Shown in pieces: positions 33,319 through 34,229 of a DNA stretch of 64,000 nt; position 1 is the first letter of the stretch, and each line of letters begins with the position of its first letter. The notes under the pieces were generated by a model. It did no database searches, was not told the DNA's origin, and was given only the letters and a program-made list of their open reading frames with translations. The position numbers were made by a program, and so were the translations under genes. Origin of the DNA: the human T2T-CHM13v2.0 reference genome, Homo sapiens. The DNA lies in assembly GCF_009914755.1 (NCBI RefSeq), contig NC_060926.1; one strand, written 5' to 3'.

Positions 33319-33405
33319 AGCCAGGCGCAGTGGCTCATGCCTGTAATCCCAGCACTTTGGGAGGCCGAGGCGGGTGGATCACGAGGTCAGGAGACCGAGA
33401 CTATC
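33319..33405 (+). mobile_element. Alu left-arm 5' fragment truncated at the gene-fusion junction
   Basis: Alu ends abruptly at GAGACTATC; no right arm, tail or TSD. Confidence 0.9.
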
Positions 33406-33440
33406 TGAGGGAGAATCTTCAGGTTTTTTCTTCTCTTTTG
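33403..33440 (-). pseudogene. Truncated remnant of RANBP2 exon 21 ((A)[12 protein letters not shown]) at the fusion junction
   Basis: Intact TTACAG acceptor with pyrimidine tract; translation continues RANBP2 ...[18 protein letters not shown], then Alu sequence begins. Confidence 0.9.
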
Positions 33441-34229
33441 CTGTAACACCAGTCAAAAAAATTGACAAAGATAAGGTATTAAGTATTGACGTTAATACTC
33501 TACCTGAAAATAAAAACCATGGAACCTATCTATAGGTTAAAACAGCATACTGATAAAAAACACATATACTTTGATGCAGAGATGTACGATAATCATGAAT
33601 TAGAATTAGCATCCTGATTTAGTGTTCTACCAAAAACCCTAAGTGAACACAGAATCTATTTAAAACCAAAGAAAACAAAAAAAATCTTGTGTTTACTTAA
33701 TAGTCATTGAAAAGAATTACTACAAAATTTCTAGAATTTAAAAAGGTTAAAAATTTTAAAGTGTTGCCTAACTATACTTAGCATACAATAGTTTACCAAA
33801 ATATCCACGCATTTGCAGCAATTGAAAAAAATCTTAAAACATAAGCAAGTATTAGTATACATATGAAACTAATCCAAAGCCAACTGTGATTAGTTCCTGT
33901 AAGGAAAGTTAACAATTGCCAAGAATGGAAGGTGACTAGAGTTGCATCTAGTTTGCCTGTGTTCAAGCATGATACTAGATAAAATTAAATAAAAACTGTG
34001 ACTCTATGGGTAGCTAACACTATAAAATCTAAGACCATTCATATGGCTGAAAACAACCCATCCCCAGCCACCATCAATGCAAAGGGCAAAAAATTAGAAA
34101 CAGAAAAAACTTCTATATGCAACCTGTTCTGATCTATTAATGTAAAGAAGAACTTCTGGCTAAAGGAGTTTAATAAAGTAAGCCAGTTATGAAGCATGCC
34201 ATGTATACCAACTGGTGACAGGGAAACAT

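What the first reader, a model, noticed from the sequence alone, without database searches (positions are those of the whole stretch)
33319..33443. Exact RANBP2/GCC2 fusion breakpoint: inside RANBP2 exon 21, joined to an Alu by 3-nt microhomology, just before the SUMO E3 region
Seen on the minus strand: ...GGTGTTACAG|CA AAA GAG AAG AAA AAA CCT GAA GAT TCT CCC TCA GAT followed directly by AGTCTCGGTCTCCTGACCTCGTGATCC (antisense Alu left arm). Recalled RANBP2 continues SPSD-DDVLIVYEL, the SUMO-interacting motif at the start of IR1. GAT (33403-05) is shared with the Alu consensus (AGGATGGTCTC). The Alu lacks its remainder, tail and TSD, and all exons beyond it are GCC2-like. Inference: the gene-founding rearrangement was a microhomology-mediated join rather than Alu-Alu recombination, removing the whole IR1-M-IR2 E3 ligase, RBD4 and the cyclophilin domain. 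Matching phase-1 introns kept the chimera in frame.
Basis: partly seen in the sequence, partly recalled or inferred. Interest (0 to 1): 0.8.

Follow-up and report, generated by a model that had tools for sequence, protein, structure and literature searches.

The report
RANBP2–GCC2 fusion junction of RGPD8

Summary
Observation confirmed. On the minus strand, RANBP2 homology runs from window 64000 down to 33403. GCC2 homology runs from 33405 down to window 1. They overlap only in GAT (33405-33403).

- **RANBP2 side:** the break is 38 nt into the 171-nt exon 21, two codons before Pfam IR1-M begins.
- **GCC2 side:** the break lies inside a complete 288-bp antisense Alu with a T tail and flanking direct repeats. 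RGPD keeps 87 nt of it.
- **Copies:** all 7 of 7 junction-bearing copies in this genome have the same join.
- **Age:** substitution divergence from the parents is 2.22% on the RANBP2 side and 2.28% on the GCC2 side (p = 0.59).
- **Domains:** two IR1-M units, the last Ran_BP1 domain and the cyclophilin domain lie beyond the break. The GCC2 exons give Rab_bind plus GRIP in the frame fixed by two phase-1 introns.

Caveats:
- A microhomology of 3 nt or more arises by chance in about 6% of random joins. "Non-homologous, not Alu-Alu" is shown; "microhomology-mediated" is not.
- "Founding" rests on human copies only.
- The fusion is in print. I found no base-level junction in the texts I could search, and the 2005 founding paper was not readable here.

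The parts
36801..39024 (-). RGPD8 exon 20 (RANBP2-derived). It is open in frame 0, has two Ran_BP1 domains, and its donor leaves 1 nt (phase 1).
   Evidence: Hub annotation; 2224 nt, frame 0 without stops, leftover 1; Ran_BP1, E 6.6e-109, 2 stretches.
33441..36800 (-). RANBP2 intron 20-derived sequence, ending in the intact exon-21 acceptor (ttacag at 33446-33441).
   Evidence: window 39069..33403 collinear with chr2 109226727..109232345, 97.1%; acceptor context.
33403..33440 (-). Remnant of RANBP2 exon 21: the first 38 of 171 nt. Its donor site is lost.
   Evidence: identical to RANBP2 in all 7 copies.
33403..33405 (-). GAT: the only bases shared by both parents at the join (3-nt microhomology).
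   Evidence: query overlap 396-398; (observed microhomology 3, chance P of 3 or more = 0.062).
33319..33405 (-). 87-nt fragment of the antisense Alu (its 5' end) inherited from the GCC2 intron. The other 201 bp, including the tail, are absent.
   Evidence: GCC2 Alu chr2 108953774-108954061, 288 bp.
33307..33318 (-). The single surviving copy of the Alu's target-site duplication. The other copy stayed behind in GCC2.
33379..33381 (-). In-frame TGA inside the Alu fragment. If the exon-21 acceptor is used, the protein ends 7 residues (SLGLLTS) after the join.
   Evidence: ORF 33379..33525.
32535..33440 (-). Alternative exon annotated in other RGPD8 transcripts, starting at the exon-21 acceptor.
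   Evidence: Hub annotation; no AATAAA or ATTAAA within 100 nt of its end (nearest at 32656 and 32691), so its 3' end is uncertain.
29741..33318 (-). GCC2 intron-derived sequence, forming the 3' part of the 7060-nt chimeric intron 36800..29741.
   Evidence: window 33405..29531 collinear with chr2 108953975..108957853, 97.2%.
29601..29740 (-). First GCC2-derived exon. Its acceptor is phase 1 and it encodes Rab_bind profile positions 3-48 of 66.
   Evidence: only frame 2 is open; E 1.3e-25; same splice sites in GCC2.
26829..27030 (-). Second GCC2-derived exon: the end of Rab_bind plus a complete GRIP domain.
   Evidence: GRIP 1-44 of 44, E 2.7e-19; 67 of 67 residues identical to GCC2.
18954..18988 (-). 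Last coding part. The stop TGA is at 18954-18956, where GCC2 has TGG.
   Evidence: Hub annotation.

Best explanation
Window 33403-33405 is the single boundary between RANBP2-derived and GCC2-derived DNA in RGPD8. It is the scar of one non-homologous end-to-end join made in the ancestor of all RGPD copies of this genome.

One end lay 38 nt into RANBP2 exon 21. The other lay inside an Alu in a GCC2 intron. In the parents, that GCC2 point lies 278 kb upstream of the RANBP2 point on the same strand. Joining a downstream point to an upstream point in the same orientation is the topology of a duplication junction. This could be a head-to-tail duplication, a backward template switch, or closure of a copied segment. 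It cannot be a simple deletion (inferred).

Consequences shown here:
- Exon 21 lost its donor. The selected mRNA therefore splices from the exon 20 donor (phase 1) across a 7.06-kb chimeric intron to the first GCC2 acceptor (phase 1).
- The frame carries on into Rab_bind plus GRIP.
- The SUMO E3 repeats, the last Ran-binding domain and the cyclophilin domain are gone.
- The still-intact exon-21 acceptor can give an alternative end that stops 7 codons into the Alu.

The enzymology of the join cannot be told from 3 nt. Classical end joining, microhomology-mediated end joining and replicative template switching all remain possible.
For: - Split homology with a 3-nt overlap.
- Collinearity: RANBP2 64000..33403 and GCC2 33405..1, both parents on the + strand at 109.23 and 108.95 Mb.
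- 7 of 7 copies are identical at the join.
- Substitution divergence from the parents is equal on the two sides: 675 of 30,428 (2.22%) against 755 of 33,070 (2.28%), Fisher p = 0.59. In the ±1.9 kb around the join it is 2.2-2.5% against 2.6-2.9% for each of the 7 copies, p = 0.22-0.68.
- The GCC2 Alu is complete with direct repeats, so the fragment was inherited from GCC2 and not inserted.
- There is no Alu at the RANBP2 break.
- No inserted or untemplated bases at the join.
- Phases and domains.
- Passages of Mao et al. (bioRxiv 10.1101/2023.03.07.531415) say RGPD formed in the ancestral ape lineage, and that RANBP2 and GCC2 are syntenic in all primates examined.
Against: - None of the 7 copies lies between the parents today (86.99, 87.79, 106.88, 108.34, 110.30, 110.95 and 112.81 Mb). 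An in-situ tandem duplication would therefore need later relocation or loss.
- My attempt to find flanks derived from the interval between the parents next to another copy was inconclusive.
- 3 nt of microhomology is expected by chance in about 6% of joins.
- Gene conversion among copies and parents, reported for this family (passages), could equalise divergence and spread a later junction to all copies.
- No ape sequence was examined here.
Confidence: 0.72

Rival explanations
1. Secondary deletion scar. The first RGPD ancestor kept more of RANBP2 (exon 21 onward) and more of GCC2 upstream sequence, joined elsewhere. A later deletion then created the present join, which spread to all surviving copies.
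For: RGPD has at least one other internal deletion relative to RANBP2: 3242 bp at window ~39070. Deletions therefore did occur in this lineage. All copies examined are human, so an older form could exist in other apes.
Against: It needs two events where one suffices. No copy in this genome keeps an older form (0 of 7). Both sides have equal divergence.
Confidence: 0.15
2. Separate duplicative transpositions. A RANBP2 5' segment and a GCC2 3' segment were copied independently, at different times, to a third site and happened to abut there.
For: Segmental duplications are often mosaics. The literature words the origin as 'duplication and juxtaposition' (passages). No copy sits between the parents now.
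Against: Divergence from the parents is indistinguishable on the two sides: 2.22% against 2.28%, p = 0.59. There is no third-party DNA between the two segments.
Confidence: 0.08
3. Alu-Alu recombination between the GCC2 Alu and an Alu of RANBP2 intron 21, followed by a deletion from exon 21 into the chimeric Alu.
For: Alu-like elements in the same orientation as the GCC2 Alu lie 1389 and 1930 bp beyond the RANBP2 break.
Against: The join itself has exon sequence, not Alu, on the RANBP2 side. This rival needs an extra deletion ending inside the same Alu. Those RANBP2 elements are only 79-85% identical to the GCC2 Alu.
Confidence: 0.03
4. A truncated Alu inserted into a broken exon (retrotransposition-associated rearrangement).
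For: None beyond the presence of an Alu fragment.
Against: The fragment is the Alu's 5' end, without tail or flanking duplication. It is collinear with a complete Alu and its flank at the matching place in GCC2.
Confidence: 0.01

Closest known systems
[quoted passage not shown] Origin attributed to Ciccarelli et al. 2005, Genome Res 15:343, which I could not read here and know only from citations.
   Same: The window's gene is annotated RGPD8. It has the RANBP2-derived front with Ran_BP1 domains and the GCC2-derived GRIP tail, and it lacks the E3 and cyclophilin parts. This matches the passages read.
   Different: Nothing differs. The report only adds the base-level join, which none of the passages I read gives.
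Non-homologous (microhomology) breakpoint junctions of segmental or tandem duplications (end joining, or FoSTeS/MMBIR template switching). General knowledge, recalled.
   Same: A clean join with 3 nt shared, no extended homology and no inserted bases. A downstream point is joined to an upstream point in the same orientation.
   Different: 3 nt is within chance expectation. No templated insertions or other complexity that would point to a replicative mechanism. No in-situ tandem copy exists today.
Alu-Alu recombination junctions, often found at the edges of human segmental duplications (recalled).
   Same: One breakpoint lies in an Alu.
   Different: The other breakpoint lies in a coding exon with no Alu within 1.2 kb. 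There is no chimeric Alu.

Membership tests
RGPD gene family | 5' part derived from RANBP2, with RanBP1-type domains | tested here: met
   collinear at 96.5-97.5%; 2 Ran_BP1 stretches in exon 20.
RGPD gene family | 3' part derived from GCC2, with a GRIP domain in frame | tested here: met
   (GRIP 1-44 of 44, E 2.7e-19; same splice sites as GCC2).
RGPD gene family | Lacks the RANBP2 E3 (IR1-M) repeats, the last Ran-binding domain and the cyclophilin domain | tested here: met
   RANBP2 homology ends at 33403. These domains lie beyond chr2 109232345 in RANBP2.
Alu-Alu recombination junction | An Alu at both parental breakpoints and a chimeric Alu at the join | tested here: not met
   The RANBP2 breakpoint is exon sequence. 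The nearest Alu-like hits are at -1243 and +1389 bp.
Microhomology-mediated junction (MMEJ / FoSTeS-MMBIR) | Microhomology at the join beyond chance | tested here: inconclusive
   3 nt observed. P(3 nt or more) = 0.062 in 200,000 random joins of the two parental regions, 0.051 in theory.
Microhomology-mediated junction (MMEJ / FoSTeS-MMBIR) | Templated insertions or several switches at the join | tested here: not met
   No extra bases at the join in any of the 7 copies.
Head-to-tail (tandem-type) duplication junction | A downstream point joined to an upstream point of the same strand | tested here: met
   RANBP2 109232345 is joined to GCC2 108953975, both on the + strand.
Head-to-tail (tandem-type) duplication junction | The chimeric copy lies in place between the parents, or its flanks carry the interval between them | tested here: not met
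   0 of 7 copies lie between 108.95 and 109.23 Mb. The flank test was inconclusive. The GCC2-side flank of RGPD8 does continue about 21 kb past the gene, to about chr2 108991063.
Retrotransposition-associated rearrangement | Inserted element with a tail and target-site duplication | tested here: not met
   The fragment lacks a tail and one direct-repeat copy, and it is collinear with GCC2.

The most novel reading that the evidence does not exclude
RGPD was born in one step. A single backward join (tandem-type duplication or template switch) of the 278-kb stretch from the GCC2 intronic Alu to RANBP2 exon 21 left both parents intact and created the chimera at once. It stayed in frame only because two unrelated introns happen to share phase 1. 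This would be simpler than the multi-step picture implied by the title of the founding paper. The orphaned exon-21 acceptor would still work as a switch to a GRIP-less isoform ending in seven Alu-encoded residues.
Probability: 0.4. Interest if true: 0.45.

Novelty: already known. Interest (0 to 1): 0.3.

Why it matters
The RGPD family is a much-studied 'core duplicon' tied to ape chromosome 2 restructuring and to disease-prone rearrangements (passages). Knowing the join to the base has several uses:

- It gives a unique marker for any RGPD copy, as opposed to RANBP2 or GCC2, in assemblies and reads.
- It gives a simple test of single origin across apes.
- It explains why the protein ends its RANBP2 part exactly before the SUMO E3 region.
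- It explains why the frame survives.

It does not change the accepted picture of the family.

Tried and rejected
**1. Founding paper.** Ciccarelli 2005 is not held under its PMC id or DOI. Desgraupes 2023 is not held either. Whether they give the breakpoint stays open.

**2. Literature searches for a base-level description.**
- RGPD, RANBP2, GCC2, duplication.
- Ciccarelli, RanBP2, GCC2, primate.
- RGPD, GCC2, breakpoint, Alu (at least 3 of 4 terms).
- RanBP2, GCC2, GRIP domain, hominoid (at least 3 of 4 terms).
- RGPD, core duplicon, RANBP2, exon (at least 3 of 4 terms).

The passages read describe the fusion only in general terms. I did not open any supplementary files. The supplementary figures 41-46 that the Mao et al. 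preprint cites for RGPD were therefore not seen, and they may bear on the ape question.

**4. Test of the tandem-duplication idea through flanks.**
- One 10-kb piece downstream of another copy was fetched.
- Its genome search returned only Alu hits and not even its own place.
- It had 0 local hits of 400 bp or more to the parental stretches I hold.
- Result: inconclusive.
- Table 2 of PMC3629113 lists RGPD5/6 with LIMS3/LIMS3L in the same 156-180 kb blocks but gives no orientation. That LIMS3 derives from LIMS1, which lies between the parents, is my recollection.

**5. Genome searches with long queries.** These score only 22 candidates, and one search did not list the window itself. I draw nothing from absences in them.

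**6. Rejected ideas.** Retrotransposition-mediated origin and assembly artefact are both rejected, because 7 concordant copies and both parents agree.

**7. Ape genomes.** None is reachable with these tools.

Full report
**What is there.** Read on the minus strand, the window shows a splice acceptor (ttacag, ending at 33441). After it come 38 nt that encode [12 protein letters not shown] once the G carried over from the previous exon is added (33440-33403). Without any gap, antisense Alu sequence then runs down to 33319. The join reads CCCTCAGATAGTCTCGG (minus strand, 33411-33395).

**Test against the parents.**
- A search of the window's own genome with 33000-33800 returned 7 full-length matches on the same chromosome (99-100%). 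They lie at about 86.99, 87.79, 106.88, 108.34, 110.30, 110.95 and 112.81 Mb, the last being the window itself.
- One locus matched only query 1-398: chr2 109231949-109232345, 98%.
- One locus matched only query 396-801: chr2 108953975-108954381, 97%.
- The remaining hits were Alu-length matches confined to about query 396-503.
- Only 40 of 1366 first-look candidates were scored. Any further junction-bearing copy would still have outranked the Alu hits.
- Aligned on the shared GAT, RGPD8 equals the 109.23-Mb locus at 60 of 60 bases upstream and the 108.95-Mb locus at 58 of 60 bases downstream.
- All 7 copies carry the same join. One copy has a T>C in the upstream intron tract and one has a G>A in the Alu.

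**Identity of the parents.**
- The 109.23-Mb locus continues past GAT with codons for D-D-V-L-I-V-Y-E-L. Pfam finds IR1-M there starting 2 codons after the retained GAT. A second IR1-M, a Ran_BP1 domain and Pro_isomerase lie further on. This is RANBP2.
- The 108.95-Mb locus supplies exons that Pfam reads as Rab_bind and GRIP. This is GCC2.
- The name RGPD8 comes from the hub's annotation. I have not assigned the other copies to gene names.

**Whole-window anatomy.**
- RANBP2 collinearity: window 64000..49148, 49146..39072 and 39069..33403.
- GCC2 collinearity: 33405..29531, 29388..15927, 15927..7445 and 7417..1.

**The two breakpoints.**
- RANBP2 exon 21 is chr2 109232308-109232478: 171 nt, phase 1 at both ends. 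RGPD keeps nt 1-38 and has lost the donor.
- The GCC2 breakpoint lies in a complete antisense Alu (chr2 108953774-108954061, 288 bp including an 8-T tail). It is flanked on both sides by ACATGTCTT.
- RGPD keeps the 87 nt at the Alu's 5' end and only the downstream copy of the direct repeat.
- The Alu was therefore already in GCC2 and was cut by the rearrangement.
- The RANBP2 side has no Alu at the break. The nearest Alu-like hits are 1243 bp before it and 1389 bp after it.

**How strong is the microhomology?** Exactly 3 nt (GAT) can be assigned to either parent. In 200,000 random joins between the two parental regions, 6.2% had 3 nt or more. The equal-base expectation is 5.1%. The join is therefore clearly non-homologous. 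The 3 nt do not show that microhomology drove it.

**One event or two?**
- Over the whole window, substitutions against the parents are 675 of 30,428 (2.22%) on the RANBP2 side and 755 of 33,070 (2.28%) on the GCC2 side. Fisher p = 0.59.
- In the ±1.9 kb around the join, each of the 7 copies gives 2.2-2.5% against 2.6-2.9%, with p = 0.22-0.68.
- The two halves look equally old. Gene conversion, reported for this family (passages), could blur this.

**Topology (inference).**
- Both parents are on the + strand, and GCC2 lies 278 kb upstream of RANBP2.
- A deletion between them would fuse the GCC2 head to the RANBP2 tail. The observed RANBP2 head to GCC2 tail needs a duplication-type, downstream-to-upstream join.
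- This fits a head-to-tail duplication or a backward template switch, which would leave both parents intact.
- Against a simple in-place version, none of the 7 copies lies between the parents today. My flank test was inconclusive.
- Mao et al. (preprint passages) state that RANBP2 and GCC2 are syntenic in all primates studied. They also state that RGPD formed in the ancestral ape lineage, with later dispersal, inversions and gene conversion.

**Consequences for the gene.**
- Exon 20 (39024..36801, 2224 nt) is open in frame 0 and leaves 1 nt.
- The first GCC2-derived exon (29740..29601) is open only in the frame that needs 2 leading bases. GCC2 has the same acceptor and donor there.
- Both introns are therefore phase 1. 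The selected transcript skips the donor-less exon-21 remnant and runs in frame into Rab_bind (profile 3-66, over two exons) and GRIP.
- If the intact exon-21 acceptor is used, as in the alternative exon 32535-33440 of the hub's table, the frame reads SLGLLTS after the join and stops at TGA 33381-33379.
- No canonical poly(A) signal lies within 100 nt of that exon's annotated end, so that model's 3' end is uncertain.

**What is known.**
- The fusion of RANBP2 and GCC2, its ape specificity and the loss of the E3 region are in print (passages read).
- Five full-text searches and the passages read gave no base-level description of the join.
- The founding paper (Ciccarelli 2005) and a 2023 review were not readable here. 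I opened no supplementary files.
- I therefore rate the finding as already known in kind, with a possibly unpublished detail.

**Verdict.** Two softenings apply: "microhomology-mediated" is not shown, and "founding" is shown for the human copies only. Interest is modest.

Noticed in passing
window 39025-39072 (minus strand): A second RGPD-specific rearrangement. RANBP2 chr2 109223485-109226726 (3242 bp) is missing at window ~39070. That stretch covers the end of intron 19, the exon 20 acceptor and about 2.9 kb of exon 20 coding sequence. The RGPD8 exon now starts at an AG (39026-39025) lying inside what is coding sequence in RANBP2, still in frame. The join is not perfectly clean, with 1-2 ambiguous or extra bases.
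   Followed up: partly
window 18954-18956: The RGPD8 stop codon TGA corresponds to TGG in GCC2, so the GCC2-derived tail is cut short by a point change. The first base of that exon also differs, A in RGPD8 and G in GCC2.
   Followed up: no
window 1-17144 and beyond the left end: GCC2-side homology does not stop at the gene's 3' end. It runs to window 1 and on to about chr2 112773939, equal to about chr2 108991063 beside GCC2. Four other copies (108.35, 106.86, 87.77, 87.01 Mb) share an earlier common end at about window 8102 (that table scores few candidates).
   Followed up: partly
window 29388-29531: About 140 bp present in RGPD8 but not in GCC2, just downstream of the first GCC2-derived exon. 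It shows as a gap between two alignment blocks. Its nature was not examined.
   Followed up: no
window 49146-49148: About 84 bp of RANBP2 (chr2 109213347-109213429) have no counterpart in RGPD8.
   Followed up: no
window 32535-32700: The annotated end of the alternative exon lies inside a sense-oriented Alu. The nearest AATAAA and ATTAAA are more than 100 nt upstream, at 32656 and 32691.
   Followed up: no
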